In this document: piece after piece, positions 30,369 through 52,373 of the stretch | How the letters are laid out: each line of letters opens with the position of its first letter | Numbering within the stretch: the stretch's first letter is position 1 | Sequence record: MN850651.1 | DNA length: 64,000 nucleotides | Reading direction: 5' to 3' (one strand) | Origin: Escherichia phage moskry | Program-made: the position numbers and the translations under genes | Notes under the pieces: model-generated | The model's database searches: none | Seen by the model: the letters and a program-made list of their open reading frames with translations, nothing else | What the model was told of the DNA's origin: nothing

Positions 30369-30893
30369 TTATGCGTGAACCGTCTTTAAACGTTCTTCAA
30401 ATTTCCGAAGAAGTGCTTGGCGTTCTGCTCGTTGTTCCGTATAAGTTTTAATACGACCTGAAGTGAGGGCGTATTGTTCGTTTACCGATTCCTTCATAAA
30501 ATCAGGAATCTCACGACAAGCTTTTATTTCGTCGAACTTGTCAATAACTGCTTGTTGTTCTGCAATCAGATTGTTGTAGTATTCGATATCCGATTTAATG
30601 TTTTGGATATCAGACTCAGTAGGCATGTTACGTGCTTTACGTTTTGCCTGATACTCTGCGTTTGTAGCACGACTCCAGTGAAGAGTACGTTTTTTGTTAG
30701 TGTTTTTATAGACTTCCAAAATCCCAACTGAATCGATGATAACAATCCAGTTCCAACGGCTTTTGTAAATCTCTCCTCCAGAAACGGTAATCTCGTTACC
30801 GCATGCTACTTCATTAAAGAACTTGCTTTGTGCTTCAGATTTAAATTTACCGTCGTTATAATTTACCAGGTTGAAAATATCTTTAGCGTTCAT
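30369..30893 (-). CDS. Hypothetical protein
   Basis: 174 aa. Confidence 0.5.
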   Translation of the reverse strand: MNAKDIFNLVNYNDGKFKSEAQSKFFNEVACGNEITVSGGEIYKSRWNWIVIIDSVGILEVYKNTNKKRTLHWSRATNAEYQAKRKARNMPTESDIQNIKSDIEYYNNLIAEQQAVIDKFDEIKACREIPDFMKESVNEQYALTSGRIKTYTEQRAERQALLRKFEERLKTVHA

Positions 30894-30951
30894 GTTTTAC
30901 CTCCAGTAGTTGATAGGTCTATAATAACATAACTATAGACCTTGTAAACAA

Positions 30952-31239
30952 CTAAAAGAAACTTTTTTCGGTATTTTTTCCACTGAACCAAACCGACTTC
31001 GGGATTTTTTGTAATTTTTCAGATTTAAGTTTCTCTTCCAGTTCTTTCTTATATACACCCTTGTCGTACTGGAGCATCTCTATGGCATTCTTTTGCAAAC
31101 GATCTAAGGTAATTAAGGCTTTAGTTTTTCCTTTCAAGGAAGAGTCCTGGCGAACCTCCTCGCTATATTGCATCGTAGAACTAACCATACGATGAGCATA
31201 CAGTTCGACTGCGGCTTTAATTTTTTGCATAAAATCCAT
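30952..31239 (-). CDS. Hypothetical protein
   Basis: 95 aa. Confidence 0.45.
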   Translation of the reverse strand: MDFMQKIKAAVELYAHRMVSSTMQYSEEVRQDSSLKGKTKALITLDRLQKNAIEMLQYDKGVYKKELEEKLKSEKLQKIPKSVWFSGKNTEKSFF

Positions 31240-31377
31240 AACATATCCTCTTTGATTTGTACATCATTATTTTTAAATATTTCTATGCCCTCAGTAGGTT
31301 CCTGGTGTCCTTCTTTGAGGTAAGCCATATGATTATTCATCTTTATGGCTTTTGTTACCTCAGAACTTCCTATAAGC

Positions 31378-32379
31378 TTATTTCAGTAAAGTTACTTCAG
31401 AGATTTCCTCCCAACCATCTTTATCAGTTGAAATAAAATCTGCTACATAAAGAGCCGTACGTAATGATACATTGCGAAGACGAGATACGTTAGCCTTCAT
31501 CCAGGACAATGCTTTATACGTTTCTGCATCAGTCAGACCACGTTTCTGCATCATGTCAGTAGATAATATTACATCTTCAACTCGAACCATAATCTCTTCA
31601 TTAGAGTGTACTCCAAGGTCGAGATACACTGAACGAGATACTAAAGCTTGAAGGTGTGGAGCAAGTTTCGAACCGCGTTCTAACTCTTTATCGATATCAA
31701 CGTTTGTAATGAAAACGATAGTACCTTCAAACTCAAATTCTTTATCAATACCCTTATCATCGAGATAAGATGACGCAGTGCTCCAACAAACTTTGCGTTT
31801 ATCTCCGGTATCTAATGCTGCTTTAAGAAGATTCAAGATGTCCATATCTGAGAATACGTCAACGTCATCGATTAAGAGAACGCTGTCTGCATCACGGTTG
31901 AGCCAAAGTTGTTCGTAAAGGCCAATACCAGAGATTTTACCATTAATGCTTTTGTATTTGATGAAACCATTATCATTAGCATTATTAAGTGCTTTATCCA
32001 GAGAATACGTCTTACCAATACCGGCTGCACCTGAAATAATGAGTGAACGAATTTTGCCATCGATAATGCCATTCGTCATCATGTTCATTACTTTAAAGCG
32101 TTTGTTGATACGAGTTTTCATATCTTCAGTGCTTTCAACAACTGCAACTGGTGATGTCTCAACTCTTTCCATTACGATGTCTGATTTGAAGACCCATACT
32201 CCACGTTCAGAACCATCAATCATAACGAAAATTTTACCGTCACCTAAGTGGGAACATTCAGGATTAAGCTTTGCTGGGAACCAGGTCTTTGTGGCAACAT
32301 AAGAACCAGAGATTTCGTTATTACGATAGATACCTTTTTTGATTTGAACGTTGAACATTTTATTCTCCAATTTACTCAT
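31378..32379 (-). CDS. AAA+ / P-loop ATPase domain protein
   Basis: 333 aa; Walker A ISGAAGIGKTYS, Walker B LLIDDVD. Confidence 0.6.
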   Translation of the reverse strand: MSKLENKMFNVQIKKGIYRNNEISGSYVATKTWFPAKLNPECSHLGDGKIFVMIDGSERGVWVFKSDIVMERVETSPVAVVESTEDMKTRINKRFKVMNMMTNGIIDGKIRSLIISGAAGIGKTYSLDKALNNANDNGFIKYKSINGKISGIGLYEQLWLNRDADSVLLIDDVDVFSDMDILNLLKAALDTGDKRKVCWSTASSYLDDKGIDKEFEFEGTIVFITNVDIDKELERGSKLAPHLQALVSRSVYLDLGVHSNEEIMVRVEDVILSTDMMQKRGLTDAETYKALSWMKANVSRLRNVSLRTALYVADFISTDKDGWEEISEVTLLK

Positions 32380-32789: not shown

Positions 32790-33779
32790 TTATTTATAGT
32801 AAGAATTATGATTTTCGAGATAGACTTGCTCAAGGAAATCATCCCAGAAACTCATATCTACTTTTTGTTGCATACCATTCTTGGCAGCTCGTTCTGATGC
32901 TTGTTCAACTTGGTCAACGATATCTTCTAGGAATTCTTGTACAGTTTTAAACGTATGTTTACCAAGCTTAACATCGAGAATAAATGGAGCATCCTGAAGT
33001 GGGTAAACCAGGTCGCCGGTTTTGTAAATTTCTAATAGTTGAAGTCCACCACGACATGCATGACTCAATGCTTTCCAGTCAATACCTTCGTTGGCTTCTG
33101 CCTTACGAGCACGTTCACCATAGTTCTCTTCCAGTTTAACCAGGATGGCATTGAACTCTTTATTGGTTAACGTGTCTTGGAACTTACGGTCTAACAGATT
33201 ATAGAATGTTTGCTTACCTGTTTTCTCGTTTTCGGTTTCAACCCACGAAGCAAATTCACCTACAGGCAGAACATTCTTCATATGTGATAAACGAATTACT
33301 GCACCATTATCAAAGTATTGTCCCCATTCATTAGAACGTTTAAGGGCTTGACGAAGAACAGCCAGTCGAGAACCCTTGACACCGTATTTAGAAGCTTGCT
33401 TACGGACATACCCTAAATAAGATTTCATGTTAGTGGTATAGAAACGAGACCTGTTATCTTGAATATACTTCCATACATCAGGCAAATCAGATTTAACTAC
33501 TAGACTTTGTGGAGTGTGAAGCATATCTAATGCGACGGTTTCACCATCCGTAGCTAGTTTAAAGAAATATTTGAGACTATACAACTCATGGTCCACGTCG
33601 TCTTTTGTGTTCTTAGAAGATGTGTTATTCGTGTTCTTGCTCATATGTTCTTTAACGTTACCGGTCAAGATATCACGAGCATGAGGGACATAAATTTCTT
33701 TAAAATCAACGTCAGATTCTGGGGTAGACGTTCCATAAAGGTGGCTACCAAAGTAGCCTTTCATAATTGTTTTCATCAT
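32790..33779 (-). CDS. Pol-beta-superfamily nucleotidyltransferase-fold protein (minimal NTase), unknown substrate
   Basis: 329 aa; N-terminal GYFGSHLYGTSTPESDVDF fits the hG[GS]x(9-13)Dh[DE]h signature. Confidence 0.5.
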   Translation of the reverse strand: MMKTIMKGYFGSHLYGTSTPESDVDFKEIYVPHARDILTGNVKEHMSKNTNNTSSKNTKDDVDHELYSLKYFFKLATDGETVALDMLHTPQSLVVKSDLPDVWKYIQDNRSRFYTTNMKSYLGYVRKQASKYGVKGSRLAVLRQALKRSNEWGQYFDNGAVIRLSHMKNVLPVGEFASWVETENEKTGKQTFYNLLDRKFQDTLTNKEFNAILVKLEENYGERARKAEANEGIDWKALSHACRGGLQLLEIYKTGDLVYPLQDAPFILDVKLGKHTFKTVQEFLEDIVDQVEQASERAAKNGMQQKVDMSFWDDFLEQVYLENHNSYYK

Positions 33780-36184: not shown

Positions 36185-36766
36185 TTATAACAACCCTGTC
36201 AAATCATTCCAATGCTTCCGGCATAATGACACATATCTATCGGTATCACCAATTTCAATTTGACTGCCATCTGTAATTGGAAGTCCGTCTTCCGTGACTC
36301 TAGCTACCATTGTGGCCTTTTTACCACAATGACAGACACCTTTAAGTTCAACAAGCTTATCAGCAATAGCCATTAATGCTTGAGAACCTTCAAATAGATT
36401 ACCTTTAAAATCTGTTCGTAGTCCATATGCCATTACCGGCACATTGTATACGTCAACAATACGACTAAGTTGATACACCTTTTCAGTAGTTAAGAACTGA
36501 GCTTCGTCAACAAATACACAGTGAATATCCTTTTGTGCTGCAGCCCATTTATAGAATTCAAAGATATCCATGTCTTTTGTAATTATATTGGCGTCCTGAC
36601 GAATACCAATACGAGAGACTATTTCACCTTTTGAATCGCGAGTATCAATAGCCGGTTTAAGAACTAATACACCCATGCCACGTTCTTTATAGTTATGTGC
36701 GGCAGTAAGTAATGAAGCAGACTTACCAGCGTTCATAGCGGCATATGTAAAAATTAAACTAGCCAT
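36185..36766 (-). CDS. tk: Thymidine kinase
   Basis: 193 aa; MASLIFTYAAMNAGKSASLL...VCHCGKKA matches T4 Tk. Confidence 0.95.
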   Translation of the reverse strand: MASLIFTYAAMNAGKSASLLTAAHNYKERGMGVLVLKPAIDTRDSKGEIVSRIGIRQDANIITKDMDIFEFYKWAAAQKDIHCVFVDEAQFLTTEKVYQLSRIVDVYNVPVMAYGLRTDFKGNLFEGSQALMAIADKLVELKGVCHCGKKATMVARVTEDGLPITDGSQIEIGDTDRYVSLCRKHWNDLTGLL

Positions 36767-36956
36767 AAGAGTCCTTAGTTAAATTTTCTAAATATGTTTC
36801 CAAATCATTTTCAGCTTTATCGATAGATTTTACTAATTCGTAATATGTTTCGGCATCTCCATAATCAGAAGATAATTCAAAAGACAAATCCTTTTCTAAA
36901 CTAATAATTTCACCAACTAAAAATAATATTTCGTTCTTTTGTTCGCGAGTAATCAT
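36759..36956 (-). CDS. Hypothetical protein
   Basis: 65 aa. Confidence 0.45.
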   Translation of the reverse strand: MITREQKNEILFLVGEIISLEKDLSFELSSDYGDAETYYELVKSIDKAENDLETYLENLTKDSYG

Positions 36957-44020: not shown

Positions 44021-44261
44021 CTCGGTCCCATGATTTGGCCATTAATTCGGACATAAATTCTTCAATGCGCGTTTCTTTAGATGGACTTTCACTATTAGAG
44101 ACCGCAAGTTTGTAATCTGCAATAGGACAGAACATATCAAGGTCCATATTAAGGTCGTCTTTGATTTTTTCTTCTGACACATCTTTATCATATGTGTACA
44201 GATAACTATCACATGATTCTGATTTAATGTAAATTGCTATACTCATCTCAAATTCCTGCAT
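44010..44261 (-). CDS. Hypothetical protein
   Basis: 83 aa. Confidence 0.45.
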   Translation of the reverse strand: MQEFEMSIAIYIKSESCDSYLYTYDKDVSEEKIKDDLNMDLDMFCPIADYKLAVSNSESPSKETRIEEFMSELMAKSWDRDDE

Positions 44262-44734
44262 TCGGTAATAAAACGTTCAACTTCATTATTCTTGGCCTTT
44301 ATCCTGTCTTTACGTTCCTGTAAACTACTTTTAACAAGATTAATAATGATGCCTACAGTACCTCCACCAATTATACCGCCAATTATACTTACGATAGCAG
44401 ATGCTAATAAGATAGCAATAATATCAACAAAACCGAAAGAACTCACCTTAGTACTAAAAAACCACACTGACGGTACAAATATAATCCATCCTGTTATCCA
44501 TTGGCACTTATTGAAAAACTTTTCAAGCTCAGCTTGAGTTGTTCGTATTACTTCATCGATAGGTTGATATCCATTAATGTATCTGTTCACAATAATACCT
44601 GCTGGCTGGTCGATTTTAAATTCTTGGCAAATACGTTTCACTAAGTAGGATGGACATCCTGTCCAATCCACTGAATAGTACGAAATACCTTCATTGCCGT
44701 CGTCAATATTAGACCAATATAGTTTGTTAATCAT
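44243..44734 (-). CDS. Membrane protein
   Basis: 163 aa; Gly/Ile-rich TM segments. Confidence 0.5.
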   Translation of the reverse strand: MINKLYWSNIDDGNEGISYYSVDWTGCPSYLVKRICQEFKIDQPAGIIVNRYINGYQPIDEVIRTTQAELEKFFNKCQWITGWIIFVPSVWFFSTKVSSFGFVDIIAILLASAIVSIIGGIIGGGTVGIIINLVKSSLQERKDRIKAKNNEVERFITECRNLR

Positions 44735-45420
44735 TACCAGCCTTCCATAGGGAATTCTAGATAAACTTGAGCGTTGACACGAATTTCATTGGTAATCTTT
44801 TTAACTCGGTCTGTATTACGAGATACACGTCCGAACCAACGCCATCCATTACTAATTGCACGAGAACCAGTGTGCCATGTTTGCCAATCAAACTGAAGAA
44901 GAGTACGGTCCGGAGCTTCCCATTTCTCTAGTTCACCTTTTTCAATTTTTTCGAGGACTTCTTTGTGCCACTGACGATAGATAAGTTCGCCATCAGGAAT
45001 CTGACTGAACTCTGCAGTTCCTGTTGCAAAATGAGTAGGACACACATCAGCGTTAACAAGACCAAGAATGTGTTCAGACAAATAGCGAGGATTGTCATAG
45101 TCAGGTTGTCCTGCAGTAATAAAGTGTTGACCAACCGGAATATCCGGGCGTGGTACATCGTCATGGTGATAACCTGGGATAGCAGGGTACCAACCGGGCA
45201 TCAGCATGTGGACTCGTGAATCAAATACAACCTGGTCGGTGTTCCAATCATCTGGCAAGTTCATGATGAAGCTGCGAGTAATAGGACCGCCGTTATTATA
45301 AGCAAATTCTAAACTACAGTTGAAGAACATAGGCTCGTTTTTAATCTGGTCGTTTTTAATCGCATGAGCAAAACCACCTACTGCACGAGCTTGACTATTA
45401 AACACTTTAGAACTATTCAT
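44734..45420 (-). CDS. Hypothetical protein
   Basis: 228 aa. Confidence 0.55.
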   Translation of the reverse strand: MNSSKVFNSQARAVGGFAHAIKNDQIKNEPMFFNCSLEFAYNNGGPITRSFIMNLPDDWNTDQVVFDSRVHMLMPGWYPAIPGYHHDDVPRPDIPVGQHFITAGQPDYDNPRYLSEHILGLVNADVCPTHFATGTAEFSQIPDGELIYRQWHKEVLEKIEKGELEKWEAPDRTLLQFDWQTWHTGSRAISNGWRWFGRVSRNTDRVKKITNEIRVNAQVYLEFPMEGW

Positions 45421-45421
45421 A

Positions 45422-45727
45422 TTATTTTCCTCGACATTCTTTAATGAAATTTTCTAGATTGGTAGATTCAATAGCTTTTTTACGAGCTTCTGCGTGTTCT
45501 TCTTCGGACAATTTACGTTTATAATTGACCCAGACATTATGGTCGAAACCAGACGTGGCATATAATAACAAAGCTCCAACGAATAGCAAAAATGGTGATA
45601 AAAATATACAACCAGGAACACCATCCATACTGTAAGCCTTTTGTAATACTGCAACAGAAAGAGTTGCGTAAAAAGGTGATGCAAGTATTGTTAAAAGACC
45701 AATTCGGTTGGTTTCGCCTAATTTCAT
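45422..45727 (-). CDS. Membrane protein
   Basis: 101 aa, two hydrophobic helices. Confidence 0.5.
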   Translation of the reverse strand: MKLGETNRIGLLTILASPFYATLSVAVLQKAYSMDGVPGCIFLSPFLLFVGALLLYATSGFDHNVWVNYKRKLSEEEHAEARKKAIESTNLENFIKECRGK

Positions 45728-45785
45728 AATATTCTCCTCATGTTTTAATAGGACTACTATAACATAGCCCTATCAGTTTGTACAC

Positions 45786-46004
45786 TTATTTTGACATTTC
45801 TTCGATGTCACGACGATACCCATCACGAACTTCACGAAGAGCTTCAAGGCCACACATAGGCTCGATACCAGTAATGTGAACTTGATTAATCTGATACTCT
45901 ACATCTTCTAACTGAGCGAAAACATAACGACGTTCTGCTGCACAACCAGGTTTAGCTTTACCGAAACGTTTATTCAAAGTAGTCATTTTTATATCTCCAT
46001 TCAC
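45786..46004 (-). CDS. Hypothetical protein
   Basis: 72 aa. Confidence 0.45.
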   Translation of the reverse strand: MNGDIKMTTLNKRFGKAKPGCAAERRYVFAQLEDVEYQINQVHITGIEPMCGLEALREVRDGYRRDIEEMSK

Positions 46005-46066
46005 TCATTTGTTTTGATAGGTCTATAGTATCAACAACTACAGACCTTGTAAACTGTTTTGTGAAA

Positions 46067-47023
46067 TTATTTGAAAGGTTTTACCATATGAAAGTTTTGT
46101 TTGAAACGCTTGACGTAATCGTCGTGTCCTAAGCTTTGGTACATACTTACTACTTTGCTATAATTTTCCCAAGCGAACTCACGGAACCATCCTGATGTGA
46201 TTGATGTACAGACCTTTTCAAGGGCCATCATAAAACTATCACGTGGATGGATTTTAAAGTCATTAGGAATCTGAGAACGTTCTAATGCTAGTACACATGA
46301 TTCTTCATATACACCGGCCAATTTGACCATTTCTGGTAATGATTCGAACTTCTCGCGTGAGGTCATGACTTCAGAACCATCTTTCATGTAAAATGTATAC
46401 GCTGGACGGTCTGTTAGTGCAATGGCTTCGTGAATAGTATCATGGTCATATGTATAGATGTCATCTTTAAAGAACGCACTTTTAGAAGTGTCAAGAACAG
46501 GGTGAGCATAGTTCAAAGTTTCTTTTTGGCGTTTCAGCATAATTTCAGTAAGTTCATCGTTCAGTGTAACACCTTTACCACGAAGATACTGAATATGGTT
46601 CATAGTCTTTAAAAAGAATGGATTATTTTTCTTGAAACGATGAGACATCTTAATTGCAAGACATATCTCAGGAGTTGCCCAGTAAAACCCGTTCAAACGG
46701 TCTTTAGACAAATTTTTCTCAGCGTATTTTAAAAGGTCATAAGAAGACGTGAAATCTTCAGGAGTGAGTTCACCGACTAATTCACGGACATTAGTGATTG
46801 CCGGAACAATATATGCTTCAAAATGAGTTTCGCGTCCATTATGGAAGCATTTGAAAACTTGGACATCAGGGTTATCTTGGTGAACATATACACCCATCAT
46901 TTGATTTTTGAATGCATTCCAAGAACCTTGGTCCGCAATAAAGTCCCAATCACTATTTTTAATAGCGCTAGAATCAATAAGACCGTGATAGTGAAGTGCA
47001 CGAGAACCAATAACTAACATCAT
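46067..47023 (-). CDS. Hypothetical protein, possible nucleotidyltransferase-fold N-terminus
   Basis: 318 aa; VIGSRALHYHG...SDWDF weakly resembles the GS...DxD NTase signature. Confidence 0.45.
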   Translation of the reverse strand: MMLVIGSRALHYHGLIDSSAIKNSDWDFIADQGSWNAFKNQMMGVYVHQDNPDVQVFKCFHNGRETHFEAYIVPAITNVRELVGELTPEDFTSSYDLLKYAEKNLSKDRLNGFYWATPEICLAIKMSHRFKKNNPFFLKTMNHIQYLRGKGVTLNDELTEIMLKRQKETLNYAHPVLDTSKSAFFKDDIYTYDHDTIHEAIALTDRPAYTFYMKDGSEVMTSREKFESLPEMVKLAGVYEESCVLALERSQIPNDFKIHPRDSFMMALEKVCTSITSGWFREFAWENYSKVVSMYQSLGHDDYVKRFKQNFHMVKPFK

Positions 47024-47051
47024 AATATTTTCCTCGGATTAATTCATTAAC

Positions 47052-47303
47052 TTAAATTTCACGACATGCGATATTATATTCATCCCAGAGGTCATCATGT
47101 GAAGCCTCTACCAATGGAACGATTGTACCGTTTATGTCTTCATTATAAGGGCAAATTGTACAGTGCGCATCTTCGAATCGGATGCCTTTGTGTTCAGATT
47201 TTTTATAACGCATATCGAATATCTTTGCAAACTTTTCACGAGTAATGGTTTTACCAACTACTTCGGTTCCGATACTTTCGTAATAAATCATTGTGGACTC
47301 CAT
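47052..47303 (-). CDS. Hypothetical protein
   Basis: 83 aa. Confidence 0.45.
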   Translation of the reverse strand: MESTMIYYESIGTEVVGKTITREKFAKIFDMRYKKSEHKGIRFEDAHCTICPYNEDINGTIVPLVEASHDDLWDEYNIACREI

Positions 47304-47353
47304 TTAATTTGATAGGACTACTATAACATAGCCCTATCTTGTTGTAAACTGTT

Positions 47354-47551
47354 TTAGCAAGAATAACTAGATGATACCCAGCCTTGAACAGTGATACTAT
47401 TGTTGGATAATGAGATCGCGTCCTGGAGATTCAGACCTGCGTTATCTTCAATCCACAATGTAACTTCTTCGCGTTCTTCTGTTGCAATTTGGAACAGGTT
47501 TTCCAGAGCAGCTACTGCCGTACGTACAGCACAATCTAATTCACGAGACAT
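47354..47551 (-). CDS. Small protein, C-terminal WVSSSxxC family member
   Basis: 65 aa ending QGWVSSSYSC. Confidence 0.5.
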   Translation of the reverse strand: MSRELDCAVRTAVAALENLFQIATEEREEVTLWIEDNAGLNLQDAISLSNNSITVQGWVSSSYSC

Positions 47552-47560
47552 ATGATTTCC

Positions 47561-47833
47561 TTAACAAGTGTGAGAAGATGCAACCCAACCGCCATCTTCA
47601 AGGCTCAAGTTGTAGTCGTATTGGTAAACGTCAGCCCATTCAGCATAGCCGTTTTTTGTACAACGTTCAAGATCGGCTTTAAGATGTCCGGGTGAATGAT
47701 AGGTTCCACCCATACCATAAGCTGGATACAAGTCGAATGTTGTGTTTTGTTTATCAGCAATTTCTTTGGCAGCCTCAATAGCTGCATAGATTTTTGCTAC
47801 GGCTTCAGCCAGTTCGGTTTGTTCTTTAGACAT
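47561..47833 (-). CDS. Small protein, C-terminal WVSSSxxC family member
   Basis: 90 aa ending GGWVASSHTC. Confidence 0.5.
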   Translation of the reverse strand: MSKEQTELAEAVAKIYAAIEAAKEIADKQNTTFDLYPAYGMGGTYHSPGHLKADLERCTKNGYAEWADVYQYDYNLSLEDGGWVASSHTC

Positions 47834-47842
47834 AATGATTCC

Positions 47843-48148
47843 TTAGCACAACGCAGAAGACGAAACCCAAGCACCTTCAGTAATAACGTAACCATTACCT
47901 TCACGCTTAACATCGCCACCATTATTTTCAATTTCATCTTTCATCCACTGGGATACGATTTCACCCTTAGGATAATAAGTACGACCGCTACCATAATCAC
48001 CTACAGAAAATGATACGGCATATTGGTCTGCGATCTTTGTTGCTTCTTCTTCGATACGTTCAGCTTGATTCAGAAGTTTATAAATTGCATCTGAAGCGGA
48101 TTTGGCATCATTAAACTCTGGTACTTTAATTTCAATAATCTTACTCAT
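47843..48148 (-). CDS. Small protein, C-terminal WVSSSxxC family member
   Basis: 101 aa ending GAWVSSSALC. Confidence 0.5.
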   Translation of the reverse strand: MSKIIEIKVPEFNDAKSASDAIYKLLNQAERIEEEATKIADQYAVSFSVGDYGSGRTYYPKGEIVSQWMKDEIENNGGDVKREGNGYVITEGAWVSSSALC

Positions 48149-48246
48149 TTTCTACATTCCTTAATAAAGTTTTCGATTGTTTCATTTTCACGTCTAGCTA
48201 GGAGTTCATTATAACTAATCATTTGAGAAGCGTAAACAGCATAAAT

Positions 48247-48669
48247 TCAGTTCAGGCTTTTGCATCTTATCTCCTTAACGAATTCCATGGCTTCGTCATA
48301 TTCATATTTTTTAACAGCCTCGTCATATTGAGCTCTTGCTTTTGCACATTGAATTTTCCATTCGCGTACTCGAGCTCTATAATGTCGTCCTTGGTACCAA
48401 TATCCCACCCAATTAATAGGCATTAATAAAAATGGCACAATAAACGACCCGGCTATAATAAGTAAAAACACTGCATCAGACGATATAACTTCACTAGAAT
48501 CTAAAACAGCTCCTATAATCATAAAGATTAAAAATGCTAAAGCTAAAATAGGGCCAAATAGTACTTCGTTTGGGATTAATTTACGTTTGTATTCGTATGC
48601 CCAGGGCTTAATTGGCATGTACAGGGTTGGCTTTGACATATTCTCTACATTCCATAATAAATTGCTCAA
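48247..48669 (-). CDS. Membrane protein
   Basis: 140 aa; two TM helices then basic C-terminus. Confidence 0.5.
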   Translation of the reverse strand: MSNLLWNVENMSKPTLYMPIKPWAYEYKRKLIPNEVLFGPILALAFLIFMIIGAVLDSSEVISSDAVFLLIIAGSFIVPFLLMPINWVGYWYQGRHYRARVREWKIQCAKARAQYDEAVKKYEYDEAMEFVKEIRCKSLN

Positions 48670-52198: not shown

Positions 52199-52219
52199 AT
52201 TTTCCTCACTTGAAGTTGG

Positions 52220-52293
<74 letters not shown>

Positions 52294-52299
52294 AATATA

Positions 52300-52373
52300 T
52301 GACCCAGACCAGATTCGAACTGGTAACCTTTCCCTTATGAGGGGACTGCTGCTAACCATTGAGCTACAGGGCC
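52300..52373 (-). tRNA. tRNA-like gene, anticodon CAU (Met or lysidine-Ile type), irregular D-arm
   Basis: T-arm ACCAG-TTCGAAT-CTGGT, anticodon loop CTCATAA, acceptor GGCCCTG/CTGGGTC with one U-U mismatch; D-stem does not pair canonically. Confidence 0.5.

What the first reader, a model, noticed from the sequence alone, without database searches (positions are those of the whole stretch)
46067..47023. Second possible nucleotidyltransferase-fold protein
The 318-aa protein begins VIGSRALHYHG...SDWDF, a looser match to the NTase GS...DxD signature than the 32790..33779 protein. Two NTase-like accessory proteins in one phage would be unusual.
Basis: inference. Interest (0 to 1): 0.4.

Follow-up and report, generated by a model that had tools for sequence, protein, structure and literature searches.

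The report
Phage nucleotidyltransferase with small-protein partner genes
The flagged gene very probably encodes a real, active nucleotidyltransferase of a large, uncharacterised phage-only family, and it always sits beside arrays of tiny acidic proteins with an invariant tail that may be its substrates or partners.

Summary

The family is large (733 phage genomes; 1,608 clusters at 50% identity), essentially phage-restricted, and unstudied.

"Two NTases in one phage is unusual" is wrong. The other one is the T4 NrdC.11 ortholog, found in 1,521 phage records.

New observation: the gene belongs to a conserved module. In 26 of 27 long-form lineages, spanning unrelated phage families, 1-6 tandem genes for small acidic proteins ending in W-x-x-S-S-x-x-Cys(COOH) lie next to it, usually just upstream. 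The window has three, at 47354-48148. The short-form enzymes have a different adjacent small-protein family in 7 of 7 loci.

Best reading: an active transferase that works on or with these small proteins. The acceptor is inferred, not shown.

The parts
46067..47023 (-). Gene for the 318-aa nucleotidyltransferase (Pfam DUF7277 + DUF7275; PHROG 2141)
   Evidence: ORF. Pfam E 1e-27 and 2e-79. PHROG 2141, E 1e-150. SD GAGGAAA upstream.
46712..47023 (-). N-terminal minimal Pol-beta NTase catalytic domain (aa 1-104): strand 2-5, helix 6-12, strand 26-31, helix 32-41, strands 45-47, 54-61 and 64-73, helices 75-82 and 93-104
47003..47008 (-). Codons for G6-S7 (hG[GS] motif at the strand 1 / helix turn)
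   Evidence: 99% and 97% conserved in 151 representatives.
46943..46951 (-). Codons for D25-W26-D27 (metal-binding DxD on strand 2)
   Evidence: D25 99% (rest E), D27 100%. Invariant in distant short forms.
46817..46819 (-). Codon for E69, the third catalytic carboxylate (hEh on strand 64-73)
   Evidence: E or D in 149 of 151. Lies in a predicted strand.
46070..46672 (-). C-terminal all-alpha domain (aa 118-318; DUF7275). K125, H128, K139, H194, D195, H198, E240, E241, E248 and R249 are 100% invariant.
47843..48148 (-). Small acidic protein 1 (101 aa; ends ...GAWVSSSALC); phrog_899
47561..47833 (-). Small acidic protein 2 (90 aa; ends ...GGWVASSHTC); phrog_899
47354..47551 (-). Small acidic protein 3 (65 aa; ends ...QGWVSSSYSC); phrog_4882; divergent body, same tail
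47052..47303 (-). 83-aa ORF (phrog_3723, unknown function) between the small-protein array and the NTase gene. Whether it belongs to the module is uncertain.
   Evidence: It did not recur across lineages in the neighbourhood clustering.
48208..48236 (-). Sigma-70/early-type promoter-like site (TTTACG-17-TATAAT) upstream of the first small gene
   Evidence: consensus match only.
47320..47348 (-). Second promoter-like site (TTTACA-17-TATAGT, TG-extended) upstream of the 83-aa ORF and the NTase gene
   Evidence: consensus match only.

Best explanation
The gene encodes a catalytically competent nucleotidyltransferase of the DNA-polymerase-beta superfamily.

Mechanism: the small N-terminal domain (G6-S7, D25, D27, E69) binds NTP and two Mg2+ ions and transfers the NMP to a hydroxyl group on an acceptor. 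The acceptor is held in the cleft formed with a large, very conserved, family-specific all-helical domain (DUF7275).

Context: it is the enzyme of a conserved two-component module found only in phages, in an early-gene region. The other component is a tandem array of small acidic proteins.
- Long-form enzymes, as here, pair with proteins ending in W-x-x-S-S-x-x-Cys-COOH.
- Short-form enzymes pair with an unrelated family carrying G.Y.SWDG..W.

Most likely acceptor: a conserved Ser of these small proteins. That would be protein nucleotidylation, as CitX/MdcG, GlnD/GlnE or MntA perform on their dedicated protein partners. The modified small proteins would then act on host targets.

Shown here: fold, conserved catalytic residues, the module and its distribution.
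Inferred: catalytic activity (about 0.9), a functional link to the small proteins (about 0.8), and the small proteins being the acceptors (about 0.35).

For: Catalytic residues are 97-100% conserved over 151 diverse representatives and in 28-34% identical short forms.

Module evidence:
- Neighbourhood clustering of 88 loci in 30 lineages finds the small family on the same strand, almost always upstream, within 2.5 kb, and none farther out within +/-6 kb in the representative loci. Counts: 22 of 30 lineages by HMM, three more by relaxed search, one more very short ORF.
- 163 of 170 members end in Cys. W at -8 is 83% conserved, S at -5 90%, S at -4 83%. Median pI 4.4.
- The strict tail motif occurs 3 times in the 64-kb window against 0.02 expected, all at 47354-48148.
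- In the complete 99-kb genome of the unrelated Pseudomonas phage phiPsa300, all members sit at 83141-85426, directly upstream of the NTase gene at 85507.
- Reverse test: 4 of 4 small proteins found by their own profile have the NTase gene 40-1,500 nt downstream.
- T4's syntenic region lacks both components.
- Short-form enzymes have a second adjacent small family in 7 of 7 loci.
- SD sites and 9-nt gaps indicate co-expression.
Against: No experiment or co-fold links the enzyme to the small proteins, so adjacency is the only evidence.

Long and short forms share every invariant catalytic and C-domain residue, yet pair with non-homologous small families (hhalign probability 0.8%). That fits a common non-protein substrate with the small proteins as regulators at least as well.

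The closest structures act on tRNA 3' ends (MenT) or small molecules (ANT(2''), LnuA), not on proteins.

RNA-repair genes occur nearby in a minority of loci: RNA ligase in 4, PNKP in 11, YqeY in 4, TROVE in 1.

An unrelated 83-aa ORF separates the array from the enzyme gene in this window.

No Pfam or PDB sequence hit ties the family to any protein-modifying NTase.
Confidence: 0.45

Rival explanations
1. A MenT/AbiEii-like RNA 3'-end nucleotidyltransferase. It would add nucleotides to tRNA or other RNA ends, either to disable host translation or to repair CCA ends damaged by host defence. The small acidic proteins would be inhibitors or regulators, as the 68-aa antitoxin MenA1, encoded upstream of MenT1, blocks its active site.
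For: The best structural neighbours are MenT1, MenT3 and MenT4, with the A-adding enzyme also present. The helical lobes of 5uvd and TglT are the only thematically consistent weak hits for the C-domain. MenA1 is a small protein encoded upstream of menT1 (PMC10435456). Invariant K125 lies about 98 residues after D27, similar to the D41-K137 spacing in MenT1 (numerical analogy only). RNA ligase, PNKP, YqeY or Ro60 genes lie nearby in some loci. Carrier phages have tRNA genes.
Against: None of 43 members hits the AbiEii/DUF1814 Pfam model even at E<=1. The protein is acidic to neutral (pI 6.4; C-domain median 7.4), which is not typical of an RNA binder. Arrays of 1-6 divergent paralogs with an invariant tail do not resemble one-to-one antitoxins. 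The family is absent from bacterial isolate genomes. RNA-repair neighbours are a minority.
Confidence: 0.22
2. A small-molecule nucleotidyltransferase, like ANT(2'')-Ia or LnuA. It would nucleotidylate a metabolite, antibiotic or nucleotide-derived immune signal bound by the acidic His/Asp/Glu cluster of DUF7275. The small proteins would be unrelated or regulatory.
Against: No sequence similarity to any aminoglycoside or lincosamide NTase family. It does not explain the near-obligate adjacency of small-protein arrays in both enzyme subtypes. No ligand is suggested by any conserved biosynthetic neighbour.
Confidence: 0.18
3. A non-catalytic NTase-fold scaffold (pseudoenzyme), or a chance GS...DxD match in an unrelated fold.
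For: The loose motif occurs by chance in 2.3% of shuffles and in 5 of 96 window ORFs. No sequence-level NTase family hit.
Against: Fold search is unanimous. All five catalytic positions are 97-100% conserved across a family of 1,608 clusters at 50% identity, which is not expected for a pseudoenzyme.
Confidence: 0.03

Closest known systems
MenT / AbiEii (DUF1814) nucleotidyltransferase toxins (MenT1 8an4, MenT3/TglT 6j7n, MenT4 6y56)
   Different: No Pfam AbiEii hit. The C-lobe is far larger and has no solved relative. MenT motif IV is not identifiable, because position 143 is His in the query. Phage-only rather than a bacterial TA or Abi locus. Partner genes form arrays of divergent paralogs with an invariant C-terminal tail. 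tRNA activity is untested.
Small-molecule NTases ANT(2'')-Ia (4xje) and LnuA (4wh5)
   Different: No sequence relationship. Different C-domain. No antibiotic-resistance context.
Protein-modifying Pol-beta NTases with a dedicated protein partner: CitX/MdcG (Ser of a small acidic acyl-carrier subunit), MntA (Tyr of HepT), GlnD/GlnE (from established knowledge, not tested here)
   Same: The proposed logic is the same: a Pol-beta catalytic domain forms a phosphodiester bond to a hydroxyl side chain of a specific protein encoded next to it. CitD and MdcC are also small (about 100 aa) and acidic, with a conserved Ser.
   Different: Resemblance is by analogy only. No Pfam hit to CitX, MdcG or MntA (NCBIfam MntA E 0.076 is for the other protein, NrdC.11). 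No structural comparison was available. The acceptor residue is not demonstrated.
T4 NrdC.11 / RlaP family (the window's other NTase, 32790..33779)
   Same: Pol-beta NTase-fold accessory protein of T4-like phages. Same genome.
   Different: No detectable sequence similarity. Different Pfam family (RlaP PF10127). Present in T4 itself and in 1,521 phage records. No small-protein array was examined for it.
Pfam DUF7277 + DUF7275; PHROG 2141 (long form) and PHROG 6944 (probably the short form)
   Same: The protein is a full-length member.
   Different: These entries carry no function, no fold assignment and no mention of partner genes. No paper mentions them.

Membership tests
DNA polymerase beta-like nucleotidyltransferase superfamily (fold level) | Minimal alpha/beta core with a mixed sheet: strand-helix-strand-helix-strands | tested here: met
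DNA polymerase beta-like nucleotidyltransferase superfamily (fold level) | hG[GS] motif between strand 1 and the following helix | tested here: met
   V4-I5-G6-S7. G 99%, S 97% (rest G) in 151 representatives.
DNA polymerase beta-like nucleotidyltransferase superfamily (fold level) | [DE]h[DE]h on strand 2, plus a third carboxylate h[DE]h on a neighbouring strand | tested here: met
   D25-W-D27-F (99% and 100%). E69 in F-E-A-Y is E or D in 149 of 151 and lies in predicted strand 64-73.
DNA polymerase beta-like nucleotidyltransferase superfamily (fold level) | Mg2+-dependent nucleotidyl transfer activity | not testable with these tools
   Needs biochemistry.
MenT / AbiEii (DUF1814) | Match to the DUF1814/AbiEii sequence model | tested here: not met
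   No hit for the query or any of 43 homologs at E<=1.
MenT / AbiEii (DUF1814) | Motif III Lys and motif IV Asp in the C-lobe (MenT1 K137, D152) | tested here: inconclusive
   Invariant K125 is at a comparable distance from the DxD. The candidate acidic position 143 is D in 91% of the family but His in the query. No residue-level superposition was available.
MenT / AbiEii (DUF1814) | Bacterial toxin-antitoxin or Abi locus | tested here: not met
   Only 5 loci, all MAG contigs, among representative genomes of 185,579 species. No PADLOC hit.
RlaP / NrdC.11 family | Match to PF10127 or similarity to the window's NrdC.11 ortholog | tested here: not met
   No Pfam RlaP hit. BLASTP E>6.
HD-domain phosphohydrolase (considered for the C-terminal domain because of SHR...YDHDxIH) | HD fold and H...HD...D motif matching HD models | tested here: not met
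Pfam DUF7277 + DUF7275 / PHROG 2141 | Scores above gathering threshold over the full model lengths | tested here: met
   97.1 and 266.4 bits against a cut-off of 27. PHROG E 1.3e-150.
Protein-nucleotidylating NTases (CitX/MdcG, MntA, GlnD/E) | Sequence-family membership | tested here: not met
   No Pfam or NCBIfam hit to these families.
Protein-nucleotidylating NTases (CitX/MdcG, MntA, GlnD/E) | Covalent NMP-type modification of a dedicated partner protein | not testable with these tools
   Only gene adjacency was shown.

The most novel reading that the evidence does not exclude
The enzyme and the small acidic proteins form a previously unrecognised, phage-specific post-translational modification system. 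The NTase would attach a nucleotide to the invariant Ser of the W-x-x-S-S-x-x-Cys tail, and to the SWDG Ser of the second family in short-form systems. This would create arrays of nucleotidylated mini-effectors for host takeover or counter-defence. A more radical variant is that Ser activation is followed by elimination and attack by the terminal Cys, giving a RiPP-like thioether ring.
Probability: 0.3. Interest if true: 0.8.

Novelty: new variant of a known kind. Interest (0 to 1): 0.6.

Why it matters
This gives a fold, a catalytic site and a testable partner to one of the larger 'hypothetical' families of big virulent phages. The family spans T4-like phages, Phapecoctavirus, Otagovirus, Menderavirus, actinophages and jumbo phages: 733 sequenced phage genomes and about 1,600 clusters at 50% identity.

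A near-obligate pairing of a Pol-beta transferase with arrays of small acidic proteins carrying an invariant Ser-Ser...Cys C-terminus has not been described. If the small proteins are substrates, this would be a new kind of viral protein modification. If they are inhibitors of a MenT-like enzyme, it would be a phage-borne toxin/antitoxin-like or tRNA-end module.

Either way it yields simple experiments in an E. coli phage system (RB69-like Mosigvirus).

Tried and rejected
2. Relationship to the other NTase (NrdC.11/RlaP): none by BLASTP.
3. Defence or anti-defence libraries: no PADLOC hit for the query or for the Acinetobacter homolog annotated 'DefenseFinder protein'. I take that label to be an automatic structure-based annotation; this is my inference.
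4. PDB sequence searches with the protein and with the profile: only a spurious PsaB match.
5. Apparent Rosetta-stone fusion of small protein plus NTase (P0205, 377 aa): artefact. The DNA has an in-frame TAG between the two ORFs and the locus does not translate to the query.
6. Weak small-family HMM hit at 36759..36956: lacks the tail, so not counted as a member.
8. Literature searches for DUF7275, DUF7277, PF23940, PF23942, RB69ORF names, phage NTase anti-defence and RiPP-type precursors found nothing on this family.
9. Search for other conserved neighbours: none beyond the small families. NAMPT, PNKP, RNA ligase, YqeY and Sir2 recur only in minorities of lineages.
10. Bacterial homologs: only 5 MAG contigs. 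This search uses near-invariant peptide patterns, so very divergent members could be missed.

Full report
OBSERVATION. The ORF exists at exactly 46067..47023 but is read on the minus strand. The plus-strand frame is full of stops. A GAGGAAA Shine-Dalgarno precedes the ATG. The loose pattern alone would not be convincing. It occurs in the N-terminal part of 5 of 96 ORFs of at least 100 aa in the window, and in 2.3% of shuffles of the protein.

CONTEXT. The window is an RB69-like Mosigvirus: 99.4% protein identity to Escherichia phage DCP548. The gene lies in a minus-strand early-gene region upstream of nudE and e (lysozyme). Promoter-like sites lie at 48236-48208 and 47348-47320.

FAMILY. The protein matches two Pfam domains of unknown function: DUF7277 (aa 2-101, E 1e-27) and DUF7275 (aa 120-305, E 2e-79). 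It also matches PHROG 2141, function unknown. It has no NCBIfam, PADLOC or PDB sequence match. tblastn finds it in 733 phage records, almost all annotated 'hypothetical'. The hosts are Escherichia, Acinetobacter, Aeromonas, Pseudomonas, Vibrio, Klebsiella, Gordonia, Streptomyces and others. The large protein collection holds 2,239 clusters at 90% identity. The exhaustive profile search finds 1,608 clusters at 50% identity, 581 of them at E<=1e-30, and the best 150 all share the same ~300-aa architecture. Among one genome for each of 185,579 bacterial and archaeal species, only five loci turned up, all on metagenome-assembled contigs. The family is therefore essentially phage-restricted. No paper mentions the DUFs.

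IS IT A NUCLEOTIDYLTRANSFERASE? Yes, at the level of fold and active-site signature.
- In 43 diverse homologs, G6, S7, D25, D27 and a third acidic residue, E69, are invariant.
- In 151 representatives of 50%-identity clusters (median 42% identity to the query): G6 99%, S7 97% (otherwise G), D25 99% (otherwise E), D27 100%, E69 E or D in 149 of 151.
- The same residues persist in 28-34% identical, shorter homologs from Streptomyces, Gordonia and Vibrio phages.
- An AlphaFold2 model built on the alignment is confident (pLDDT 92.2, pTM 0.87). It places GS at the turn after strand 1, DxD on strand 2 and E69 in strand 64-73.
- Foldseek's top hits are also NTases, with probability 1.0 but marginal E-values.
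- No Pfam NTase model is hit, including AbiEii/DUF1814 and RlaP, by the query or by any of 43 homologs. This is therefore a distinct family within the superfamily, not a member of the MenT family.

'TWO NTASES IS UNUSUAL' IS NOT SUPPORTED. The 32790..33779 protein hits RlaP (PF10127, E 1.7e-12) and PHROG 388 'nucleotidyltransferase'. It is 78% identical to T4 NrdC.11 and occurs in 1,521 phage records. Many T4-like phages therefore carry both. The two proteins are unrelated in sequence.

A CONSERVED MODULE. I collected 80 loci from viral contigs plus annotated phage loci, called ORFs, and clustered the neighbours.
- One neighbour family stands out: small proteins (median ~90 aa, pI 4.4) on the same strand, usually upstream, often as 2-6 tandem paralogs.
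- 163 of 170 members end in Cys as the last residue. W at -8 is 83% conserved, S at -5 90% and S at -4 83%, while the rest of the protein averages 23% column identity.
- In representative loci of 30 lineages (65% identity threshold), 22 have at least one member within 2.5 kb, and none lies farther out within the +/-6 kb flanks.
- Relaxed searches add L077, L035 and L069 and L054. That gives 26 of 27 long-form lineages.
- In this window the strict motif W-x-x-S-S-x-x-C-stop occurs three times against 0.02 expected, all at 47354-48148. Each ORF has an AAGGA Shine-Dalgarno, and the gaps are 9 nt.
- In the complete 99-kb genome of the unrelated Pseudomonas phage phiPsa300, all members lie at 83141-85426, immediately upstream of the NTase gene at 85507. 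In Phapecoctavirus nieznany (first 50 kb) they lie at 30722-31706, upstream of 31797.
- Conversely, four small proteins retrieved by their own profile all have a DUF7277/DUF7275 gene 40-1,500 nt downstream.
- T4's syntenic region lacks both components. The window block ~44.7-48.1 kb is an insertion between the e.2 and e.4 homologs.
- The small proteins have no Pfam family, no PDB relative and no name (phrog_899, phrog_4882; RB69ORF139c).

SHORT FORMS. About 250-aa homologs (578 clusters) lack residues ~32-115 of the long form but keep all invariant residues. They have no tail-motif neighbours. Instead, all 7 loci examined (L003-L005, L104-L107) have one or two adjacent copies of a second small acidic family. 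That family is ~115 aa, pI 4.4, with conserved G.Y.SWDG..W...V...V...Y, has no Pfam match, and is not homologous to the first family by hhalign. Both enzyme subtypes therefore come with dedicated arrays of small acidic proteins that carry a conserved Ser/Trp motif.

MECHANISM.
Shown: fold, catalytic signature, module and distribution.
Inferred:
(a) The enzyme is active (about 0.9).
(b) It functions with the small proteins (about 0.8).
(c) The small proteins are the acceptors, nucleotidylated on the conserved Ser (about 0.35). Three arguments favour this. Arrays of divergent paralogs sharing only a short invariant motif look like multiple substrates of one enzyme. The extremely conserved C-domain would match an invariant tail. 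Pol-beta NTases that modify a dedicated neighbouring protein are established (CitX/MdcG on a small acidic carrier protein's Ser; MntA on HepT; GlnD/GlnE); this last point is from general knowledge and was not tested here.

Against (c): long and short forms share every invariant residue but pair with non-homologous partners, which fits a common non-protein substrate with protein regulators. The nearest structures act on tRNA ends or small molecules. RNA-repair genes are nearby in a minority of loci.

Rivals: a MenT-like RNA-end transferase with MenA1-like small inhibitors (0.22); a small-molecule transferase (0.18); a pseudoenzyme or chance match (0.03).

An apparent fusion of a small protein to the enzyme (P0205) proved to be a read-through of an in-frame TAG and is not evidence.

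VERDICT. Its rarity argument is wrong. The real interest lies in an uncharacterised, widespread, phage-only two-component module. I rate it a new variant of a known kind (a Pol-beta nucleotidyltransferase with a novel second domain and dedicated small-protein partners), interest 0.6.

Noticed in passing
window 47354-48148 (-): three ORFs 47843..48148, 47561..47833, 47354..47551: Tandem small acidic proteins ending W-x-x-S-S-x-x-Cys(COOH) (phrog_899 / phrog_4882, no Pfam). This is a large uncharacterised phage family that is almost always immediately upstream of the DUF7277-DUF7275 gene, across unrelated phage families.
   Followed up: yes
L003 4630-5322; L004 4600-5420; L005 3360-3656; L104 2089-2898; L105 3800-4213; L106 3725-4447; L107 3749-4433: A second, non-homologous small acidic family (conserved G.Y.SWDG..W...V...V...Y) lies adjacent to every short-form (about 250 aa) homolog examined. 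No Pfam match.
   Followed up: partly
It is present in 1,521 phage records.
   Followed up: partly
window ~44734-48148 versus T4 67.6-68.7 kb (L092): Relative to T4, the block between the e.2 homolog (44243..44734) and the e.4 homolog (48247..48669) is an insertion. It carries the module plus four other unknown ORFs: 228 aa phrog_1843, 101 aa, 72 aa and 83 aa.
   Followed up: partly
L098 107-1240 (protein P0205): A database protein that looks like a small-protein/NTase fusion is a gene call that read through an in-frame TAG. The small ORF here ends ...SSGGPACW, not in Cys.
   Followed up: yes
L106 2024-2992; L107 780-2324 and 5072-6025; L003 2064-2723; L102/L103 ~1-1046; L100 3422-3868; L104 1076-1570: RNA-repair-type genes (RNA ligase, PNKP, Ro60/TROVE, YqeY) lie within a few kb of the enzyme gene in a minority of lineages. 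PNKP occurs in 11 loci, RNA ligase in 4, YqeY in 4 and TROVE in 1.
   Followed up: partly
L006 8203-9003; L005 6556-7317; L008 1-1670; L089 11206-15120: NAD-related genes (Sir2, NAMPT, NMNAT/Nudix, PRPP-synthetase-like) recur in the same accessory regions of several carrier phages. A NAMPT-like family appeared in 4 lineages about 4 kb away. Significance not assessed.
   Followed up: no
window 52217-52373 (-): Two phage tRNA genes, tRNA-Arg(tct) and tRNA-Met(cat), lie about 5 kb upstream of the module. This corresponds to the T4 tRNA region.
   Followed up: no
L002 4662-5615 (Acinetobacter phage phi1_092060 CDS0146): A full-length homolog is annotated 'DefenseFinder protein' in GenBank, although it hits no PADLOC model. 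It is probably an automatic structure-based label reflecting the AbiEii/MenT-like fold.
   Followed up: partly
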